A stretch of DNA of 64,000 bases from a virus. The notes beneath the pieces were generated by a model. It worked only from the letters and a program-made list of their open reading frames with translations, was not told where the DNA came from and did not search any database. Positions within the stretch are counted from its first letter, which is position 1; each line of letters opens with the position of its first letter. Shown here in pieces: positions 2,698-60,558 of the stretch. The stretch covers positions 21,759 through 85,758 of IMG/VR virus record IMGVR_UViG_3300009788_000005; one strand, given 5' to 3'. A program made the translations under genes and the position numbers.

Positions 2698-5600
2698 TTA
2701 GGACCTACCTCTACATCACTTTTCATCTCCACATTATCAAATTCAAAACCAAAGTACTCCATATTAGGGGGATTATTGAAAGCCTTAAGCAACCACCTCA
2801 AATATAAATCCATTTGACTTCTCCTCACATACCCTAACCCCGAATCATGCACCGTATTTAACAAGTCTCCATCATACTGTAGTATACTCATTCTATCTTG
2901 ATGAACTATACAAGAGAATAAAAGCCCCTGACCACTACTACCTTGTACTGGACTATTAACCCCTATACGCTCATCATGACTCCTTAACCCAGGATCATTA
3001 GAATTAATAAAAGGAGTAAATCTTTTACTACCGTAAGCAGTTCTTACCCACCCATAACGATTAGCCTTAGATCTATATAACTCGTGCGCCTTAGGTATAG
3101 CAGGGTGAAGAGTATATAAATAATCTTTATGCTCCTTACGTGCTTGCTCCATGCTCATTTCTATCCCATACTGTATCTTAGAATACTCCCTATAACTTTC
3201 TGCACTCATCACATAAATCAATCCAAAATTCTTAGCCTTACCTTTATGCCTATGTATTTCTGCTGCCCCAATATCCTCCTCCAACATAATACAGTAATCA
3301 TCCAAAGAAACATTAGTACCACTACATGAAGCTAATACATGCAAATCAATATCATCAGCCAAAGCCTCTGCCATTGTATCTACTCTCCATAAATAAGTAC
3401 ACCACCTTAATTCTGATTGAGATAAGTCAGCCTGAAAAAACTCATACGGATCATCCTTATTAGTATCATACAAAGGAGTACAAAACATCCTCTTAATATA
3501 AGATACTGTTTCCTTAACTCTCTCTAAAGAAGTCCTACTAGGTATATTCTGTAAATTAGGATTATTACTAGTAATCCTCTGAGATCTAGCAGTACCGAAA
3601 GTACTATGTACCTTATCCTCATTATCCAAGCAAGATCTTATCCCCTCAAAATAAGTACTCTTAGCCGTAGACAATAATCTATACTCTAATACTCTTTCTA
3701 TCAATTTTGTAGGGTCCGGAAACAAACCTAATATATCCTTATTAGTAGAGGGATAAGGTCCTGTTTCCTTCTTCATCCTCTTAGTTATAGGATCTTTTAT
3801 GGTCCTGGTTACTACAGGTAATTCATAATTCAAACCCGCCTTACTTGTATAAATAAGTTTTCCTAATTGAGTAGGGGAATTAAAATTAATACTCTCAAAA
3901 TTATTAACCTCCCCAGACTTCAACTTATCTATTTTAATCTTCCAAGTTACAATATTTTTATAAGGATAGGAAAGGGAGTAGTAATTTTGATCTAATACCA
4001 ACTGTCTTTTTTCTACTACGTTAGAATAAGATTTAAGTAGTATATACTCATCCGTTTCTTTATCTTTTCTCTTACTATACACCTTATCCTCACTTTCCAT
4101 TTTCTGCTGAGATATGATCAACTCCTTTAACTTGATACCCTCAGCCTTAGATATCTTCTCTGTAAGATCCTGTATCATCTCTTGATCTATTCTATCTTTC
4201 TCATACCGAATAAATCTCTTTACCAAAGACATATTATTCAACTCTTCTGTAACCTCCTGTAATAACTCTGTACATTTACTAAGTCCCTCCTCTAAGACAT
4301 CCGTATCTACCGGCATACCCTTATATTCCATATCCCCCAATAACCGTAACTTAGAAGTTTCATAATTACGATATACCCTATACAACTTAGGATCTTTCAA
4401 TAACTCATACTCAAATAAATATCTAGCTCTTAAAGTTAAATCATTATCATTAGCACAATAATTACCCAATGATCGTAAAGAGTCGTTTGCATAATCCACC
4501 TCATCACCATACCCCTCAAACTCAGGATACAATTGAGGCGCTATTTTTTTAAGTCCATGAGGTACATCCTCCCGTATAGTATGATGCATAATTAAAGTAT
4601 CATCCAACCTACCCTCTACCTCTATATCTAATTGTCTCCCTATACTGAGATCAAACTTAATATTATGGGCAACCTTACGTATATCCTTCTTTTTAAATAT
4701 CTCCTCATTAATTTCAGGCAATAAAAAATCATGTAATAAATCAGGTATATGCTCTCTTTTAACAAACCCCCAATTACTAAACAAGGCATCTATAAATACC
4801 TTATTATCCTCCTCAACCATAACAAGCTCCCCATTATATCTTTCTAAAGGTTCACCATTCTTATACACATACATGTTTACTACCAAAATACCCTCCTCAT
4901 CTTTCTCCTGTACCGAGACATATTCAAGATCATCATCACAACCTATATTCCAAGGGCTTTCACAATGATATATAGGTATTATGTATCCACTTCCAACCTG
5001 AAAACTAATACCCAACATACTAGCCTGAGCCTTATGAGGATCAAGAGAATGATCTTTTATATCCTTAGATTTAGTAAGTCCTTTTAACTTAGGAAAAGTC
5101 TCAAAATCAAAACATATTTCTCCTGTAATATTACAGTAATCTATTAGAGGTTTTATATCTTCAGGAGTATTAATAAATACTGTTTCAGTCATCGTAGATA
5201 CAGACTCAAACCCCAATATAGCATTATAGCATAACCCTATAGCCTTCTCTCCTCTACGTAACTCTACCATTGACTCCGGATCATCCGGATACTGATATAA
5301 CAATTTAATCTTAAAGGATGAGATAAACCCCCAATAAGTTACATGTGTCCCTGGTTTATTTCCTAAAGAAATTACTTTTTTATTTAGCCTGTATAGTAGG
5401 TCTGTATGCCTACCAAACTTTAGGTACTCGGATACCTTAGCCCCAAAACCTACAACAGCATCCCAATCCCCCCATTCAAATCCCTCCCCCACAGAAACCA
5501 CATGCTCAAGAGAAACCACATACATTGAATCCTGTACTACCTGTCTTTGATCAGCCTTCAACAATTTATAATCCGTAACCCCATATATAGCCAATGATAA

Positions 5601-22858: not shown

Positions 22859-25800
22859 TTAAAATTCTGATTTTCTTACTTGCCTGTCTAATTTTAATTG
22901 TTGCTTTTTCTGCTCTATAAGAGAAAGGGTTAGTTCTTGTTCATCTATAGCAGTAATTACTTTCTCTACACTATCCTTAACCCCCTGTATATCTTGACCT
23001 AAATTATCAAATCCTCTACGTAATTCCGCAAAAGCTACAGATGTGGATGCCTCACTTATACCTGTAGGTACTGCTCCTCCCGTTTGAAACTTATACTTAG
23101 GAGCTTTAACTGGTACTCTAGGTATATTGGCTACTACCCCTGATCCTGAAGATTTAACCATACCAAATAAACTAGACATATCCCCATAAGGCTTACCCTG
23201 CTTTCTCCTGATTCCTTGGTGATTCATCCACGATAATAAAGGATAAAATAATTCCGTAGACCACCTATTATTCTCATACTCTCCTCCCTCTACTTCTATA
23301 GGTATTCCTCCCCTACTATGCCTAGGTCCTACGTGCATCCCCCCATATCCTTTTCTTCGTTTAGGTGGTCTAGTAGCACTTCTAGCTGAGGTTCTACCTC
23401 TTATGGGGGTAGGTCCCCCATCAGCAAACAATAAGCCCGTATCTCCCCCCAATTCAAAACTTGTAGCACTAGCTGTTAATGATCTAATACTAGCTATACC
23501 CGCAGCTACCGCCGCTATAATAGAAATAATAGCGGCTATATTTCCTGGGAAAGGTATCTTAGCCCCCTCTGATACAGCCTTAATATTATTACTAAGAGTG
23601 ACAATATTATTTCTAATTATCTGAGCATTATCTATAACAGCTTGTATAGCCTGTATTTTCTTCTCAAAAGCTATAGCTGCTTCTCTTCTTTGCTCTGCCT
23701 TTTTTATAGCTGCTGCTACTCTCTTTTCTTCGTCTGCCCTCCTCTTATTTTCAGCCGCAACTTGAGCATTTCTCTGAGTATTTAAAGATGCTAATAAACT
23801 AGCCTCAGTTTCAGCATCTAATCCCTGCTTTAATATATTACGCTCCCTAGCTGCAAACTCCTGTTCCAACTGAGTTAACTGATTCTCATGCCCCTCTTGT
23901 CTACGGGCATCTCTTTCATTTATTAAAGCAATCTCCTCATCTACCCCAAACTCTAATATCTCTCTAATAGATCCCGCAAAATTAACAAGACTATCTAAAG
24001 CCTGCCTTTGAAATTCTAAAGTTTTTTCAATCTCCTCCCTCTTTCTTTCCTCTTGCTTAGTAACTTCATCTATCTCACCGTCCCGTATATCTAATAATAT
24101 TGCTATTCTTTCCTGCTCCAGTTTTAAAGTTTCCTCAGCACTTAACCCCACTATCTTTAACTGATCCTCTACAAACTGTAACGAAGCATCTAATCTTTTT
24201 TTATCAGCCTCTAACTCTATTTCAAATTTCTCATCCTCAATATCCTCTATCCGATCTACAGTTAATTGCCCAGCAATATCTATAGCATTTAATTCTGCTA
24301 GTCTTGCTGCCTCTATTCCTTTAAGTCTCTCCTGCAATACTAAATCTAATGCTTCTGATTCTGCCTCTATTCTTTTTTGTGCTGCACCCCCTCTAGCTTT
24401 AACTACTCTTTCATCAAACTCAAGATTTAATTTTGAAAAAAGTAAAGCCCTTTCCTCCTCTGTAACTTGTAGTATAGTGGATTCGTCTACTCCCTGCTGT
24501 ATTAAAGCTTGTCTTTCTTTCTCAAACCCTTCTAACTTAATATTAAGTCTACCTAATGCCTGCGCTCTTAATACCTCTAATCCTTCGATAGATTTCCTTC
24601 CCCCTGCCTCCTCAACATCAGATAATTCTCTCTCTTTTGCTATTCTCTTATTAAGAGAATCTAAAGTCTTAGCTAACTGATCTGCCTTTTTACTATCTGC
24701 CTTAGTGTTAGATACTATTCTTTTAGTATTAGTAGTTAGCACCCCAGTCAAACTACCGTAAGTCTGATTAATCTGCTGTAATATTTCCCTACTTTTACCT
24801 ACACTAGTAGTTAATAATCCTAACTCTCGTTGCTGTACTATAGTAGAGTTGGTAGTTACTCTCTGCTGTACTGCTAACTCAAAGGAAGCTTTGCCTGCAC
24901 CCCCAAACTGAGTACTTACATCATCCCACTGAGATCCTAACCTCTCAGCAGTAACTTCAGCATCAAATGCCTCCCTGGATTGTGTAGATAGACTTGTAGC
25001 TAAATTTATAGAAGCTTTCTGAGAATCGCTTAATCCATTTTCAAAATCATCTACAGCACCTACATACGAATTAAGCACTCCCTGGGAAGCTGTAAAATTT
25101 TTACTAAGCTCAACATTAGCATTCTTTAATTCATTAACAGTCTTAATAGATCTATTAAGAGATTGTACAAATATATCTGTTATCTCTGTATCCTGATCTA
25201 TATCACCTAATCTAGCTATCTCAGAGTTAACAGCATCTATGTCAGTTCCTATACCTAATGTTTGAGTCTCTAAAGCATCTCTTAAATCGTTAAAATTTCC
25301 AATAGTATTTTTTACCCCCTGCCCTAAAACATCATCTCCAAAAACTCCACCTAATCCTCTTACGCTAATTGTAGCACCTTTAGCAGCATCAGATACTAAG
25401 TCAGTTCTACCAGATAACTCAGCAAACCTATTTATTAAGGCATCAATAGGATCTCTTAAACCATCTAACTCCTTAGCAGAATTCCTTAGCTGTATTCCAG
25501 ATAACCCAGTAACTTCCTGTAGCTCTTTGGATACTTGGAGTTGATCCTTCAAAACATCTCCCAACTCTTCCTCTATAGCCTGCTTCTTTAACTTGGCTAT
25601 TAAATTAGCTTCTATAGCCAAGTTAACCGCCAATTGGGCAGATTCAATTTCCTTGAGATTACTTGACTCCGTTAAAAGATTAGGAAGATACTCCCCATAC
25701 TGATCATTGATAGCATCAATAAGATTAGATCTCTCAGCAGACCCCTCATTAGCATTCTTTAAAGATTCAAATAATAAATCTACCTGAGCAACTTCCGTAC

Positions 25801-58350: not shown

Positions 58351-58382
58351 CAAAGATAAGGTAAGGTTTTGATATATCCTAA
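58351..58382 (-). promoter_or_regulatory. Extended strong promoter (32 bp)
   Basis: TTAGGATATATCAAAACCTTACCTTATCTTTG. Confidence 0.75.
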
Positions 58383-58415
58383 TAGTGGTGTAAAAATTTT
58401 ACACCTAGTTACCCA

Positions 58416-58450
58416 CAAAAACGAAGGTCCAGTATTGCTACCAGACCTTC
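58416..58450 (-). terminator. Terminator ending the tRNA transcript
   Basis: GAAGGTCTGGTAGCAATACTGGACCTTC hairpin + GTTTTTG. Confidence 0.7.
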
Positions 58451-58479
58451 TAACCAATCGATAATTATGAAAGCTAAAG

Positions 58480-58551
58480 TGGATCTTATAGGATTTGAAC
58501 CTATGGCCGTCGGCTTATGAGGCCGATGCTCTACCCCTGAGCTAAAGGTCC
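58480..58551 (-). tRNA. tRNA with CAU anticodon (Ile2-like, or Met)
   Basis: GGACCTT-TA-GCTC AGGGGTA GAGC-A-TCGGC CTCATAA GCCGA-...-ATAGG TTCAAAT CCTAT-AAGATCC-A; one C4.A69 mismatch; CCA not encoded. Confidence 0.85.
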
Positions 58552-58727
58552 ATTAATAATTTTATCTGCTGTAGCTCCTGCACCACGTTTATTAATAACC
58601 CTGCTATACATACCAACTCTAAAAATATAGCCGTTAATAATAACTTGTGACTATAGGGCTTAGGTAAATTCACTCCTACTAACCATGCTATTGTTCCCAT
58701 TATACCTAATACTATTGAATATACCAT
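58542..58727 (-). CDS. Small two-TM membrane protein
   Basis: 61 aa hydrophobic; last codons overlap the tRNA 5' end. Confidence 0.55.
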   Translation of the reverse strand: MVYSIVLGIMGTIAWLVGVNLPKPYSHKLLLTAIFLELVCIAGLLINVVQELQQIKLLMDL

Positions 58728-58759
58728 AACTTCTATTTTGAGGGTTAACTTAAAATTTG

Positions 58760-58948
58760 AGGAGATGAGGGGATTCTAACCCCTATTTATTCCGGTCACA
58801 TTCCCGGCATATTACGCTACCTAATCCTCTTACTTACTATTCAGTAGGTTAGGCCGTAGTCACACCTAAGAGGTTAAACACTTCTCTTAGAGGTCGCATT
58901 GCTGCTATCTGCTATCTTATCAAATAGCCTGAATTATGCTACATCTCC
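58760..58948 (-). ncRNA. 189-nt tRNA-like RNA with about 115 extra nt
   Basis: Perfect acceptor GGAGATG/CATCTCC, TA-GCAT D-stem start, T-arm AGGGG-TTAGAAT-CCCCT, several internal hairpins, promoter about 30 nt upstream. Confidence 0.65.
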
Positions 58949-58978
58949 TATCAAAGATCGTCATCGTCTACAACAATT

Positions 58979-59010
58979 CAAAGGTAAGGTAATGTTTTAT
59001 AAGATCCTAA
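58979..59010 (-). promoter_or_regulatory. Extended strong promoter driving the tRNA-like RNA
   Basis: TTAGGATCTTATAAAACATTACCTTACCTTTG. Confidence 0.75.
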
Positions 59011-59045
59011 TGCCCGTGTAAAATTTTTACACATTATCCCAAAAT

Positions 59046-59071
59046 AAAAAAGCCAACCTTACAGGGTTAGC
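59046..59071 (-). terminator. Intrinsic terminator
   Basis: GCTAACCCTGTAAGGTTGGC-TTTTTT. Confidence 0.7.
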
Positions 59072-59502
59072 CTCAATTATCCGTACCGTCAATAAGAATC
59101 TCAACCTAATTTTAATAATGCAACCGCATATAAAGAACGTTTATAAAATCAGATAAGGTACAAATAACATTTCCTAAAATATTGGATCAGGGGAATGAGT
59201 AATCATACCAACTCTTACTACTATGCATCCCCTTCTCCAAATCTACTACATCCTTAGCACGGAGTTACTAATATCCGCTACCCCCTTTAAGAACGCTAAA
59301 CACTTCACCGTTATAGGTTCATCGTGCTAGTTAATGGTATCCCAATGTACACCAAACGTAGGGTATTCAAATTCTTATAGGATACTCTATATTGTTACTA
59401 GGTCTTATGAGAGTTCAATCCCACAACAGAGAATTCTATTACTTACTCATAATAATTATCTACCATCTCACCTGGGATAAACCTACTAACAATTACTTAA
59501 AT

Positions 59503-59682
59503 CTAACCATGAAAATCTTTAGGTCTTTCTTCCTCCTGGGCTGCTTTAATAGCCCATCCTACCTTTTCTAAATCCGTAGCTGCTATGCTAAGGATTCTAC
59601 CTAACTCAGACCTTCCAGCTTCGTCTCGCTTTACTCTTACATCCTGGGCAAAAGGGTAAAGCTGTTTTAATAAAGTATCCAT
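59503..59682 (-). CDS. 59-aa helical protein (not in ORF track)
   Basis: MDTLLKQLYPFAQDVRVKRDEAGRSELGRILSIAATDLEKVGWAIKAAQEEERPKDFHG*. Confidence 0.55.
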   Translation of the reverse strand: MDTLLKQLYPFAQDVRVKRDEAGRSELGRILSIAATDLEKVGWAIKAAQEEERPKDFHG

Positions 59683-59683
59683 A

Positions 59684-59785
59684 GAGATAGGACAGGATTC
59701 GAACCTGCATGATATGCGTTGTTAACCTCCCTGTGCATACCTGAAAGGGCAACCACTTCAGCGTCTAACATTCCGCCACCTATCT
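59684..59785 (-). ncRNA. Leu-scaffold tRNA-like RNA with non-canonical anticodon arm
   Basis: AGATAGG/CCTATCT acceptor, TGGCGGAATGTTAGACGC D-arm, GCAGG-TTCGAAT-CCTGT T-arm, 9-nt anticodon loop, long variable arm. Confidence 0.7.
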
Positions 59786-59801
59786 ACCAATATACTTTTA
59801 A

Positions 59802-59969
59802 TATCAACCTAATGAAGTGGGAGATAAACAGTCTCCGTCCTTACCCGTGCCTTGCGTATATTTTAGGGATATAATTATGATGCATGTAGACCCCGAAAGA
59901 TCTTCTTTAGCATATGAGCCTTGGCTGAGGTTTTTCACCTGCCCTAACAGCACTCCTATTAGATTGATA
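59802..59969 (-). ncRNA. Candidate 168-nt multibranch structured RNA
   Basis: About 18-bp closing helix with G.U pairs only on the minus strand, enclosing 3-4 hairpins including a TTCG loop. Confidence 0.5.
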
Positions 59970-60115
59970 CTCTAACAATCAACATTTCAAAGATCAAAAA
60001 GTTACCGGTACTTTCCCCGGCAGTCAGACAATGGATATCATTTCTACTATTTTTAGCACCTGCTTATTCCTCATATTCACCTTATCCATCGGGCTAAGCC
60101 CATCATCTCTTTACC

Positions 60116-60277
60116 TCAGGGTTGCTCAGCACCCCTATTAATTGGTCGTTCAACGTCCTTTTTATTTCCTAATGATAAAGACTTTGCTAAAGATTCTACT
60201 ACATCCCTCATACTAGTCTTTACAGTATTTGTGTAGGGTCTTCTAACCTCACAGCTTTGCTTCCTAATCTTATCCAT
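60116..60277 (-). CDS. 53-aa putative leaderless ORF (not in ORF track)
   Basis: TATATTTG-GGT-ATG; MDKIRKQSCEV...RGAEQP*. Confidence 0.4.
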   Translation of the reverse strand: MDKIRKQSCEVRRPYTNTVKTSMRDVVESLAKSLSLGNKKDVERPINRGAEQP

Positions 60278-60324
60278 ACCCAAATATACCTATTCATAAT
60301 GACAATGCAAACACTGTAAAAATT

Positions 60325-60558
60325 TTACAGATCTGGTATGTAGCAACATCCCGGAGTACCTATCTCAAAAGGTATACTGTAATAAATCATAACTCCTACT
60401 GCGGGTACTTTACTAATAGCCAAAAATGCTTCCTTTACCGTATTAAAATCTTCATCTGAAACTATCAGTTTTATAGGATCTTTATTATACTTAACCTTAT
60501 AAATTTCTATAGTACTAGTCAGTATATCACATACCTTAAATGCCTCTTCTTTTGTCAT
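60325..60558 (-). CDS. Hypothetical protein
   Basis: 77 aa; stop supplied by the palindrome. Confidence 0.55.
   Translation of the reverse strand: MTKEEAFKVCDILTSTIEIYKVKYNKDPIKLIVSDEDFNTVKEAFLAISKVPAVGVMIYYSIPFEIGTPGCCYIPDL

What the first reader, a model, noticed from the sequence alone, without database searches (positions are those of the whole stretch)
58760..58948. 189-nt giant tRNA-like RNA with its own strong promoter
Seen (minus strand): perfect acceptor stem GGAGATG/CATCTCC, extendable to 8 bp by A-1:T73; TA-GCAT D-stem start; perfect T-arm AGGGG-TTAGAAT-CCCCT. About 115 extra nt fold into hairpins (CTAAGAG/CTCTTAG; TACG-GCCTAA-CCT...AGG-ATTAGGT-..CGTA). A CCGG-GAATGTGA-CCGG hairpin (8-nt loop containing T-GTG-A, His-like) lies in the anticodon position. 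It lacks the G3.U70 pair and size of tmRNA. Inference: a tRNA mimic (for example a decoy for anticodon nucleases or other tRNA-targeting defences), a tRNA with an unusual D-loop intervening sequence, or a new ncRNA class using tRNA ends for RNase P/Z maturation.
Basis: partly seen in the sequence, partly recalled or inferred. Interest (0 to 1): 0.76.

Follow-up and report, generated by a model that had tools for sequence, protein, structure and literature searches.

The report
Orphan tRNA-shaped RNA gene in phage
An uncultured phage of Bacteroidota carries a 189-base gene for a folded RNA that keeps the two ends and the elbow of a transfer RNA but cannot read codons; phages hold such RNAs repeatedly, yet their job is unknown and this one has no detectable relatives.

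Summary
On the minus strand at 58948..58760 lies a 189-nt RNA with a perfect 7-bp acceptor stem, a perfect T-arm (loop UUAGAAU) and tRNA core residues (U8, A14, A15/U48, GG, G53:C61). About 120 nt of hairpins sit between them. It folds far better than shuffles (z -3.65). A strict tRNA-frame pattern hits only this site in the genome and 0 of 200 shuffled genomes. ARAGORN and Rfam do not call it. It follows a terminator and one of four copies of a phage promoter module holding the Bacteroidota TAnnTTTG box. It precedes a tRNA-Met and a terminator, inside a 2-kb non-coding island.

It is not a decoding tRNA, tmRNA, YrlA Y RNA or intron-bearing tRNA; defining features of each were tested and not met. 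Its closest described analogue is phage T4 RNAC.

No homologue was found in any collection I could reach, so covariation could not be tested, and no RNA data exist.

This scan has noted similar giant tRNA-shaped RNAs on other phage DNA. A neighbour in the same island (59785..59685) belongs to one such family.

Best reading: a stable, RNase P-processed, non-decoding tRNA mimic. Its target is unknown.

The parts
59049..59074 (-). Intrinsic-terminator-like hairpin plus T-run that closes the upstream unit
59017..59031 (.). 15-bp palindrome TGTAAAAATTTTACA, 6 bp upstream of the promoter module
58979..59010 (-). 32-bp promoter module TTAGGAT-N17-TAccTTTG, one of four near-identical copies in the genome. 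The other three precede protein genes, 21-23 nt before the ATG.
   Evidence: TAnnTTTG -7 consensus from PMC7366714 (passage)
58949..58978 (-). 30-nt stretch between the TTTG box and G1 (inferred 5' leader of about 21-25 nt). It holds GATCTTTGA, and UUUG could pair with the trailer CAAA.
   Evidence: sequence reading
58760..58948 (-). The 189-nt tRNA-shaped RNA (called RNA-C in the report)
58942..58948 (-). Acceptor stem 5' strand GGAGAUG (RNA 1-7)
58928..58941 (-). U8 A9, D-stem 5' strand GCAU (10-13), and the D-loop start A14 A15 U16 U17 C A G G
   Evidence: sequence reading
58904..58928 (-). Hairpin H1 (21-38, or 21-45 using the second copy of the direct repeat AGAUAGC)
58896..58899 (-). AUGC (50-53), the favoured 3' partner of the D-stem (pair probability 0.38)
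58862..58894 (-). Hairpin H2 (55-87): 10-12 bp with a 5-nt tip. Under the favoured fold it sits where the anticodon arm would be.
58813..58858 (-). Hairpin H3 (91-136)
58792..58811 (-). UAUGC (138-142, the alternative D-stem partner, pair probability 0.03) and hairpin H4, CCGG-GAAUGUGA-CCGG (142-157)
58768..58784 (-). T-arm AGGGG-UUAGAAU-CCCCU (165-181)
58760..58767 (-). Acceptor 3' strand CAUCUCC (182-188) and discriminator U (189). No CCA is encoded.
58542..58727 (-). ORF of 61 aa (hydrophobic, no relatives) between the RNA and tRNA-Met. Its last 10 nt overlap the tRNA.
58479..58551 (-). tRNA-Met (CAU), 71.9 bits, no encoded CCA
58423..58450 (-). Terminator-like hairpin (12 pairs) plus T-run that closes the unit

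Best explanation
The 189-nt element is a real phage gene for a stable, non-decoding, tRNA-shaped RNA.

Inferred life cycle:
1. Host RNA polymerase starts at the phage promoter module (TAccTTTG box) about 21-25 nt upstream.
2. It transcribes the RNA, a 61-codon ORF and tRNA-Met, and stops at the terminator at 58450-58423.
3. The RNA keeps a 12-bp acceptor/T-arm stack and the elbow residues of a tRNA. Host RNase P therefore cuts its 5' leader, a 3' processing enzyme cuts after U189, and the host CCA-adding enzyme tails it. The same must happen to the co-transcribed tRNA-Met, which also lacks an encoded CCA.
4. The product is a long-lived RNA. Four hairpins (H1-H4, about 120 nt) take the place of a normal D-loop, anticodon arm and variable loop, so it cannot read codons.
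5. It acts in trans, off the ribosome, as a tRNA look-alike. It shows a tRNA acceptor end and elbow to a host tRNA-binding factor, while the extra arms give specificity. The factor may be a tRNA-targeting defence nuclease, or a processing or surveillance protein.

Shown: the sequence, the fold statistics, the tRNA invariants, the promoter/terminator layout, and the failure of all decoding and known-family tests.

Inferred: transcription, processing, stability, and action in trans. My odds:
- About 0.8 that it is a real structured RNA gene.
- About 0.6 that it is processed at the tRNA-like ends.
- About 0.2 for the specific decoy role.
For: Structure
- MFE -59.6 kcal/mol, z -3.65, 0 of 200 shuffles fold as well.
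- The minus strand is 6.4 kcal/mol more stable than the plus strand.
- Read from the sequence: 7 of 7 Watson-Crick acceptor pairs; 5 of 5 T-stem pairs with G53:C61; T-loop U54 U55 R57 A58 Y60; U8, A14, A15 with U48 (Levitt pair), and a GG four bases after A15.
- The strict tRNA-frame pattern hits this site only in 171.5 kb searched, and 0 of 200 shuffled genomes.
- GC is 42.9% against 35.6% for the genome.

Context
- An upstream terminator, then the palindrome and the 32-bp promoter module shared with three protein genes.
- A downstream tRNA-Met and terminator.
- The element lies in the only roughly 2-kb stretch of the 85.8-kb genome without a long ORF.
- That stretch also holds a Leu-frame tRNA-shaped RNA. 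Its 19-nt D-arm recurs exactly in 7 other phage contigs, with compensatory acceptor changes.

Non-decoding
- No arm has a 5-bp stem with a 7-nt loop and U33. H4 is 4 bp with an 8-nt loop; H2 is 10-12 bp with a 5-nt loop.
- ARAGORN does not call it. The Rfam tRNA model matches only the 3' 46 nt, at 21.7 bits against a cut-off of 29.

Precedent
- T4 RNAC lies in the T4 tRNA cluster. It has a canonical T-arm next to its 3' end, paired ends, long internal hairpins and z -4.57.
- Its role is still unknown (PMC3014915, passage).
- YrlA shows that tRNA-like domains of non-tRNAs are substrates for RNase P and CCA addition (PMC4201824, outline heading and abstract).
Against: - No homologue was found anywhere, so no covariation or conservation supports any helix.
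- There is no RNA evidence. The only run holding the sequence is the DNA sample it probably came from, and that run shows no variants.
- The loose acceptor+T-arm architecture alone is expected 1.4 times per genome by chance.
- The plus strand also folds well (z -3.41).
- T-loop position 56 is A, not C, so the G19:C56 elbow pair cannot form.
- The D-stem partner is ambiguous: 50-53 or 138-142.
- The phage has no recognisable partner. TROVE, SmpB, CCA-adding enzyme and RtcB were each absent in six-frame searches of the whole genome. The 45 of 133 ORFs that I scanned showed nothing RNA-related.
- Nothing ties the RNA to any defence system.
Confidence: 0.5

Rival explanations
1. It is a cis-acting processing or stability module. 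On this view the tRNA-like ends serve only as RNase P and 3'-processing 'punctuation' that cuts and stabilises the downstream ORF61 / tRNA-Met transcript. The hairpins are a structured 5' leader, and no trans-acting RNA matters.
For: - It lies between the promoter and the only other products of the unit, with no terminator in between.
- The leader UUUG and the trailer CAAA could lengthen the closing helix (sequence reading).
- The neighbouring 168-nt RNA is closed by a helix of about 18-20 bp that includes its leader.
Against: - About 120 nt of extra stable hairpins and intact elbow residues (U8, A14, A15/U48, GG) are not needed for punctuation.
- ORF61 has no relative among 5.8 billion proteins. 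It runs 10 nt into the tRNA, so RNase P cleavage would remove its stop codon, which makes it a doubtful gene to protect.
Confidence: 0.15
2. It is a decayed or expanded tRNA gene with no function: a tRNA pseudogene that picked up insertions and is carried along in the tRNA region.
For: - It has no homologue and no expression data.
- A56 in the T-loop and the absence of an anticodon loop are what decay would give.
- Partial tRNA genes occur in related phages, for example the 54-nt fragment in G009.
Against: - All 12 pairs of the acceptor/T stack are Watson-Crick.
- The inserted 120 nt fold into long perfect helices, well beyond shuffles.
- A full copy of the phage's promoter module is devoted to it, directly after a terminator.
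- The genome is otherwise tightly packed.
Confidence: 0.12
3. It is a Y-RNA-like partner of a Ro60 (Rsr) ring protein supplied by the host, as proposed for other tRNA-shaped phage RNAs.
For: - Bacterial and phage Y RNAs carry tRNA-like domains (PMC4201824, sections 5 and 6).
- 2 of 7 phage records holding the neighbour RNA's family carry a TROVE gene. In one of them the gene lies about 1 kb away on the same strand.
- Bacteroides thetaiotaomicron has a TROVE gene (control row).
Against: - The 100%-complete phage genome has no TROVE gene, and neither does the incomplete Bacteroidales MAG G013.
- The RNA has no GNCGAA(N)G or GGNCCGA motif.
- No Rfam YrlA hit appears even at E up to 10.
- The TROVE link concerns the neighbour's family, not this RNA.
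Confidence: 0.08
4. It is a miniature tmRNA-like molecule. The tRNA-like ends would enter stalled ribosomes and an internal frame (GCA...UAA, 12 codons, with the stop in the H2 loop) would serve as a tag template.
For: - Reading RNA positions 37-75 gives an open frame that starts with GCA and ends with UAA in a hairpin loop (sequence reading).
- A distant relative of this phage group encodes a true tmRNA (L027:2280-2654, 54.4 bits).
Against: - Pair 3:70 is A:U, not the G.U needed for alanine charging, and the discriminator is U, not A.
- The only Rfam tmRNA-type match on this RNA, with E up to 10 allowed, is a 9.1-bit partial match to tmRNA_permuted at E 6. The same library found the relative's tmRNA.
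- ARAGORN is negative.
- The phage has no SmpB.
- The tag would end in KRSV, unlike the hydrophobic ends I recall for known tags (recalled, not from a call).
Confidence: 0.03
5. It is a working tRNA after all: either spliced of a D-loop intervening sequence, or a frameshift/quadruplet reader that uses the 8-nt loop GAAUGUGA (His-like).
For: - D-stem-like GCAUA/UAUGC pairing brackets the insert.
- GUG lies in the loop.
- A-1:U73 recalls the extra pair of tRNA-His (sequence reading).
Against: - That D-stem has pair probability 0.03, against 0.38 for the alternative.
- Excision would leave no D-loop.
- The second loop base is A, not U33.
- The stem is 4 bp with no position 26.
- There is no intron family hit.
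- As I recall, bacterial tRNA introns are group I introns of about 200 nt or more in the anticodon loop (recalled, not from a call).
- The phage's long ORFs are intact under code 11.
Confidence: 0.03

Closest known systems
Bacteriophage T4 RNAC (species 1 RNA, rnaC, 139 nt) of the T4 tRNA gene cluster
   Same: - It is a phage-encoded small stable RNA in the same transcription region as tRNA genes.
- It has a canonical T-arm (CCGGG-UUCGAAU-CCCGG) next to the 3' end, paired 5' and 3' ends, and long internal hairpins instead of a decoding arm.
- It has strong fold statistics (z -4.57).
- Its function is unknown (PMC3014915).
- It was the top match of my model in the 5-kb T4 region (13.6 bits).
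   Different: - There is no sequence homology; 13.6 bits reflects shared architecture only.
- T4 RNAC has an imperfect acceptor helix and no D-stem/U8/A14 frame in the fold.
- RNA-C is 50 nt longer, has four inserted hairpins, its own promoter and A56 in the T-loop.
Leu-frame tRNA-shaped RNAs of uncultured phages (uncatalogued; seen here in L095-L101, and as the neighbour at 59785..59685)
   Same: - The design is the same: an intact acceptor and T-arm around variable folded modules.
- ARAGORN does not call them.
- They are found in tRNA regions, sometimes in tandem arrays.
- One member (L101:460-593) shares the unusual T-loop UUAGAAU.
   Different: - RNA-C lacks the family's defining D-arm GUGGCGGAAUGUUAGACGC and its AGUCAGG acceptor.
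- It has a 4-bp class-I-type D-stem.
- My model of RNA-C finds nothing in those 7 records.
tmRNA (SsrA), tRNA-like domain
   Same: An acceptor stem and T-arm enclose a large structured insert. Standard tRNA finders miss it.
   Different: - There is no G3.U70 and no A73.
- Only a 9.1-bit partial tmRNA_permuted match (E 6) appeared in Rfam, far below its 47-bit cut-off.
- It is about half the usual size.
- The phage has no SmpB.
YrlA-type bacterial and phage Y RNAs (Rfam RF02553; Chen et al. 2014, PMC4201824)
   Same: Both are non-coding RNAs that mimic tRNA (T- and D-arm-like parts). YrlA is a substrate of RNase P and CCA addition.
   Different: - In YrlA the ends form the Ro60-binding stem and the tRNA-like part is internal.
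- RNA-C has true tRNA ends, no GNCGAA motif, no Rfam hit and no Ro60 gene nearby.
Class II tRNAs and allo-tRNAs (Mukai et al. 2017, PMC5389517; abstract start only)
   Same: They are tRNA frames with enlarged extra arms or unusual cloverleaves, found in metagenomes and phages.
   Different: Those still have a 7-nt anticodon loop and decode. RNA-C has none, and its extra material is 5-10 times larger.

Membership tests
tRNA (Rfam RF00005) | Whole-molecule match at or above the gathering score (29 bits), or a call by ARAGORN | tested here: not met
   There is only a 46-nt 3' partial match at 21.7 bits. ARAGORN calls only tRNA-Met in the window.
tRNA (Rfam RF00005) | 7-bp acceptor stem stacked on a 5-bp T-stem with a T-loop, plus core residues U8, A14, R15:Y48, GG and G53:C61 | tested here: met
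   The exception is A instead of C at position 56.
tRNA (Rfam RF00005) | Anticodon arm of 5 bp with a 7-nt loop and U33 | tested here: not met
   H4 is 4 bp with the 8-nt loop GAAUGUGA. H2 is 10-12 bp with a 5-nt loop.
tmRNA (RF00023 and related Rfam families) | G3.U70 pair and A73 for alanine charging | tested here: not met
   A3:U70 and U73
tmRNA (RF00023 and related Rfam families) | Match to a tmRNA covariance model | tested here: not met
   There is only a 9.1-bit partial match to tmRNA_permuted against a 47-bit cut-off. Positive control: the same library found a phage tmRNA in L027 at 54.4 bits.
YrlA / bacterial Y RNA (RF02553) | Ro60-binding motif GNCGAA(N)G near the 5' end | tested here: not met
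   The regex scan of the island found none inside the RNA. The motif is taken from PMC4201824 section 6.
YrlA / bacterial Y RNA (RF02553) | Encoded within about 4 kb of a Ro60 (TROVE) gene on the same strand | tested here: not met
   The complete 85.8-kb genome has no TROVE match.
YrlA / bacterial Y RNA (RF02553) | Match to the Rfam model | tested here: not met
   It is not listed at E up to 10.
Intron-containing bacterial tRNA (group I intron, RF00028) | A group I intron fold inserted in the anticodon loop, leaving a normal tRNA after removal | tested here: not met
   There is no intron hit. The insert lies in the D region, and the remainder would lack a D-loop.
Phage tRNA-ended stable RNAs (T4 RNAC type; a kind, not a curated family) | Encoded in a phage tRNA transcription unit, with a T-arm at the 3' end, paired ends and a non-decoding interior | tested here: met
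   for this RNA; for T4 RNAC
Phage tRNA-ended stable RNAs (T4 RNAC type; a kind, not a curated family) | Discrete stable transcript processed by RNase P | not testable with these tools
   No RNA run holds the sequence.
Leu-frame tRNA-shaped RNAs of phages (uncatalogued) | D-arm GUGGCGGAAUGUUAGACGC with an AGUCAGG-type acceptor | tested here: not met
   RNA-C has UAGCAUAAUUCAGG instead. The neighbour at 59785..59685 does meet it.

The most novel reading that the evidence does not exclude
RNA-C is the first seen member of a separate lineage of phage tRNA mimics. Its intact acceptor/elbow frame is CCA-tailed, and perhaps charged. Its four added arms make it a dedicated bait or inhibitor for a Bacteroidota tRNA-directed immune nuclease or tRNA-surveillance complex. 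On this view the three odd RNAs of the 2-kb island form an RNA-based counter-defence cassette expressed from the phage's own promoter modules.
Probability: 0.15. Interest if true: 0.75.

Novelty: new variant of a known kind. Interest (0 to 1): 0.48.

Why it matters
Phage tRNA genes are now understood partly as counter-measures to bacterial tRNA-cutting defences. I saw this only in the abstract starts of PMC10264068, PMC11464382 and PMC11555353 in the listing.

Non-decoding tRNA-shaped RNAs, by contrast, have had no assigned role since T4 RNAC and RNAD were described (PMC3014915). They are missed by ARAGORN and Rfam.

This element adds a clean, promoter-equipped example in a Bacteroidota phage, next to a member of a widespread family of such RNAs. 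If these RNAs prove to be baits or cofactors, they would be a large unannotated layer of phage-host conflict.

The weakness of this particular case is that it stands alone. With no relatives and no RNA data, it is a lead and not a demonstration.

Tried and rejected
**Homologue searches, all negative for RNA-C**
- blastn 'distant' of 58400-59200 against 50,697 phage records: 27 records matched, all on the tRNA-Met part (query 645-729) and none on RNA-C.
- Exact 24-mer in IMG/VR: 0.
- Loop pattern in IMG/VR: 7 stretches, none confirmed by model R1, best 8 bits.
- 27-base pattern in 185,579 species genomes: 0.
- D-loop plus T-arm pattern in IMG/VR: 0.
- Neighbour proteins of 115 aa and 134 aa in IMG/VR: 0 relatives each.
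- Relatives of the 856-aa protein: 8 + 5 loci in IMG/VR (one locus in both lists) and 3 in metagenomes, all at or below 32% identity. None carries a tRNA-like giant RNA in the flanks of the 8 loci then held.
- Single-sequence covariance model R1:
  - 1 of 13 virus records matched, the phage's own.
  - 0 of 7 records holding the neighbour's family (loci with filters off, best 10.9 bits).
  - 0 of 151 Bacteroidota genomes.
  - 1 of 4 genomes gave a 19.5-bit match, in a Cryomorpha MAG. It has no T-arm and no Rfam family, and I read it as chance.

**RNA and population data**
- No RNA holder is listed. The single holder is the probable source DNA sample.
- Its contigs show no variant over the island.

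**Other dead ends**
- No host-like tRNA is a clear ancestor among 92 distinct tRNAs. The best were tRNA-Ser and tRNA-Thr, at 29 of 39 compared positions.
- No antisense target of 12 nt or more exists in the phage's sense transcripts.
- blastn-short against all 669 kb of loci then held gave only the 13-nt T-loop match to L101.
- PHROGs and Pfam gave nothing for the 17 small neighbours tested.
- ORF61 has no relative.
- MAFFT alignment of RNA-C with the 168-nt RNA region showed no convincing paralogy.
- The 287-nt candidate in relative G009 is an ORF plus a truncated tRNA (z -0.61).

**Not consulted**
Supplementary files were not consulted. The supplementary tables of PMC4201824 (phage YrlA lists) and PMC10690425 (10,006 candidate viral RNAs) may bear on whether this RNA or its kind is already listed. 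None returned a description of a 189-nt tRNA-framed RNA of Bacteroidota phages, but they were few and keyword-bound.
Full report
**Where it lies**

The window is bases 21759-85758 of an 85,758-bp IMG/VR virus record with direct terminal repeats, rated 100% complete. Nearly all of its 133 ORFs of 50 aa or more lie on the minus strand.

The host is probably a member of Bacteroidota.
- The phage's type IX secretion cargo-like protein finds its best relative in a Bacteroidales MAG, and others in Cryomorpha, Chryseobacterium and Saprospiraceae MAGs.
- The promoters carry the TAnnTTTG box of the phylum (consensus from PMC7366714, passage).

The only sequencing run that holds the region is a subsurface metagenome, which is probably the source sample.

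**The observation**

Read on the minus strand from 58948 to 58760, the element is 189 nt.
- Positions 1-7 (GGAGAUG) pair perfectly with 182-188 (CAUCUCC).
- Positions 165-181 form AGGGG-UUAGAAU-CCCCU directly 5' of the acceptor 3' strand, as in a tRNA.
- Position 189 is U and no CCA follows.

- U8, A9 and G10.
- A14, and A15 with U164 in the position of base 48 (a permitted Levitt pair).
- GG four bases after A15.
- G53:C61, U54, U55, R57, A58 and Y60.

The one departure is A at position 56, so the G19:C56 elbow pair cannot form.

The interior folds into four hairpins: H1 (21-38), H2 (55-87), H3 (91-136) and H4 (142-157). The MFE is -59.6 kcal/mol, z -3.65, and 0 of 200 shuffles fold as well. 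The plus strand folds 6.4 kcal/mol less well.

**Is it more than chance?**

My first scan asked for a 7-bp acceptor with at most one G.U, a 5-bp T-stem and a loop TTNNA, over 60-400 nt. It gave two hits on both strands of the genome: this RNA and a 101-nt element at 59785..59685. Twenty shuffled genomes gave 1.4 hits on average, so that architecture alone proves nothing. With any loop allowed there are 13 hits.

A stricter pattern built from canonical tRNA invariants found only this RNA in the real genome and nothing in 200 shuffled genomes. I chose that pattern after seeing the RNA, but its terms are the textbook invariants, not peculiarities of this sequence.

Further points in favour:
- Both loose hits fall on the coding strand, inside the one roughly 2-kb stretch without a long ORF (58353-60325), next to the phage's only called tRNA.
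- GC is 42.9% against a genome value of 35.6%.

**Transcription unit**
- A terminator-like hairpin with a T-run ends the upstream unit at 59074-59049.
- Next come the phage's 15-bp palindrome (59031-59017) and, 6 bp further on, a 32-bp module (59010-58979) ending in TAccTTTG.
- Three other near-identical copies of this module stand 21-23 nt before the ATG of protein genes.
- G1 of the RNA lies 31 nt after the last G of the box. A leader of roughly 21-25 nt is therefore expected and must be removed.
- Downstream follow a 32-nt spacer, a 61-codon hydrophobic ORF with no relative, and tRNA-Met(CAU) (71.9 bits). The ORF overlaps the tRNA by 10 nt.
- A 12-pair terminator at 58450-58423 closes the unit.

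'Own promoter' is thus supported. 'Strong' cannot be judged.

**What it is not**
- *A decoding tRNA.* ARAGORN does not call it. Rfam matches only its 3' 46 nt at 21.7 bits against a cut-off of 29. No arm has a 5-bp stem with a 7-nt loop and U33.
- *A tmRNA.* Pair 3:70 is A:U and the discriminator is U. The only Rfam tmRNA-type match is a 9.1-bit partial one to tmRNA_permuted. The same library recognised a 375-nt tmRNA in a distant relative of this phage group (L027, 54.4 bits), which ARAGORN missed.
- *A YrlA-type Y RNA.* There is no Rfam hit and no GNCGAA(N)G motif (motif from PMC4201824 section 6). The complete genome has no TROVE gene.
- *An intron-bearing tRNA.* There is no intron family hit. 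The insert is in the D region. Removing it would leave a 66-nt RNA without a D-loop.

The phage also lacks SmpB, a CCA-adding enzyme and RtcB. Of the 133 ORFs, I scanned 45 against Pfam or PHROGs and found nothing RNA-related.

**Two folds**

The D-stem 5' strand GCAU(A) has two possible partners.
- Pairing with 50-53 (AUGC) costs 0.2 kcal/mol relative to the MFE and has pair probability 0.38.

Under the favoured fold:
- The D-loop carries a hairpin inserted after the GG.
- G54 is base 26.
- H2 stands where the anticodon arm would be, at about twice its length and with a 5-nt tip.
- H3 and H4 fill a 77-nt variable region.

Under the other fold the whole of 15-137 replaces the D-loop and H4 is the 'anticodon' arm. 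Either way the RNA cannot decode. Only relatives or probing can settle the choice.

**Relatives**

I found none. The details are under Tried and rejected. In short:
- blastn of the phage collection found nothing on RNA-C.
- Four pattern scans of IMG/VR and one of the species genomes were negative.
- Model R1 found nothing in 12 whole records of distant relatives, 7 records holding the neighbour's family, or 151 Bacteroidota genomes.

Closer relatives of the phage do exist. Proteins 59%, 44% and 42% identical to its 856-aa protein were found. The absence of homologues in what I searched is not evidence of absence.

**Company it keeps**

The 101-nt element at 59785..59685 has the D-arm of a leucine tRNA, a 9-nt loop where the anticodon loop should be, and a swollen variable arm.
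- Its 19-nt D-arm occurs exactly in 7 IMG/VR contigs.
- In each it lies within an uncalled tRNA-shaped RNA of about 80-135 nt with acceptor AGUCAGG/CCUGACU. One contig has a tandem array of four.
- Against these, the window's copy (AGAUAGG/CCUAUCU) shows double compensatory changes at pairs 3:70 and 4:69. One array member shows such a change at 7:66.
- That neighbour is therefore a member of a conserved phage RNA family.
- Two of the 7 records carry a TROVE (Ro60-like) gene. In one it lies about 1 kb from the RNA on the same strand.
- One array member shares RNA-C's odd T-loop UUAGAAU.

Earlier notes of this scan describe many such giant tRNA-shaped RNAs on other phage DNA. I used them as leads only.

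Upstream, at about 59969-59802, lies a third structured RNA candidate of 168 nt. It is closed by a helix of about 18-20 bp, with z -2.2. Its upstream sequence resembles RNA-C's leader (CTTTGAAWTGTTG ... ATAGGAG).

**Closest described thing**

T4 RNAC (139 nt) and RNAD lie in the T4 tRNA cluster.
- RNAC has a canonical T-arm beside its 3' end, paired ends and long internal hairpins (z -4.57).
- It was the top match of my model in a 5-kb T4 region, at a mere 13.6 bits. That reflects likeness of build, not homology.
- Their roles are still unknown (PMC3014915).

**How it most likely works**

The steps and their status are given under Best explanation.
- Shown: the frame, the fold, the signals, and the exclusion of decoding and of the known families.
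- Inferred: transcription from the module, RNase P and 3' processing with CCA addition by host enzymes, stability, and action as a tRNA look-alike on a host tRNA-binding factor.

I put 0.5 on the whole statement, about 0.8 on 'real structured RNA gene', and about 0.2 on the decoy role. The rivals are a cis-acting processing module (0.15), a decayed tRNA (0.12), a Ro60 partner (0.08), a mini-tmRNA (0.03) and a working odd tRNA (0.03).

**Verdict**

This is a real and curious element of a kind that is known but unexplained. It is a new variant and not a new class. It is weakened by standing alone, without relatives or RNA data. Interest 0.48.

Noticed in passing
window 59684-59785 (minus strand): A 101-nt Leu-frame tRNA-shaped RNA with a 9-nt 'anticodon' loop and a roughly 30-nt variable arm. 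Neither ARAGORN nor Rfam calls it. Its 19-nt D-arm recurs exactly in 7 IMG/VR contigs inside similar uncalled RNAs. Compensatory changes are seen at acceptor pairs 3:70 and 4:69.
   Followed up: partly
window ~59802-59969 (minus strand): A 168-nt multibranch RNA candidate closed by a helix of about 18-20 bp (z -2.2), with no Rfam match. Its upstream sequence resembles the leader of the 189-nt RNA.
   Followed up: partly
L101:51-775 (IMGVR_UViG_3300032050_015761): A tandem array of four tRNA-shaped RNAs (125, 98, 134 and 112 nt) with AGUCAGG-type acceptors, none called by ARAGORN. The third has the T-loop UUAGAAU.
   Followed up: partly
L095/L103 (G167:C1:1-6998) and G170:C1:70756-71520: 2 of 7 phage records with the Leu-frame RNA carry a TROVE (Ro60-like) gene. 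In G167 the RNA (3159-3283, minus strand) and two tRNAs lie about 1 kb upstream of the gene on the same strand. In G170 the two are about 14.6 kb apart.
   Followed up: partly
window 58542-58727 (minus strand): An orphan 61-codon hydrophobic ORF runs 10 nt into tRNA-Met. RNase P cleavage of the tRNA would remove its stop codon, so the ORF is either spurious or translated only from unprocessed RNA.
   Followed up: partly
L027:2280-2654 (G006, 172-kb phage with terminal repeats): A distant relative of this phage group encodes a 375-nt tmRNA inside a 26-tRNA array. Rfam finds it (54.4 bits) but ARAGORN does not.
   Followed up: no
L063:1501-1680 (Cryomorpha sp. MAG, contig end): An intergenic, structured 180-nt stretch (z -2.19) with no Rfam family. 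It weakly matches model R1 (19.5 bits) through an H4-like hairpin CUGG-GGCCGUGA-CCAG. I read the match as probably chance.
   Followed up: partly
window 25349-25363 and 58819-58833: A 15-nt stretch of the RNA (positions 116-130) is repeated exactly, in the same orientation, inside the tape-measure gene. About 0.03 such matches are expected by chance.
   Followed up: no
genome 1841-2368 (L047, minus strand; outside the window): The phage encodes a circularly permuted YpsA SLOG-family protein (Pfam PF12694, E 3.6e-37), a nucleotide-binding fold of unclear role in phages.
   Followed up: no
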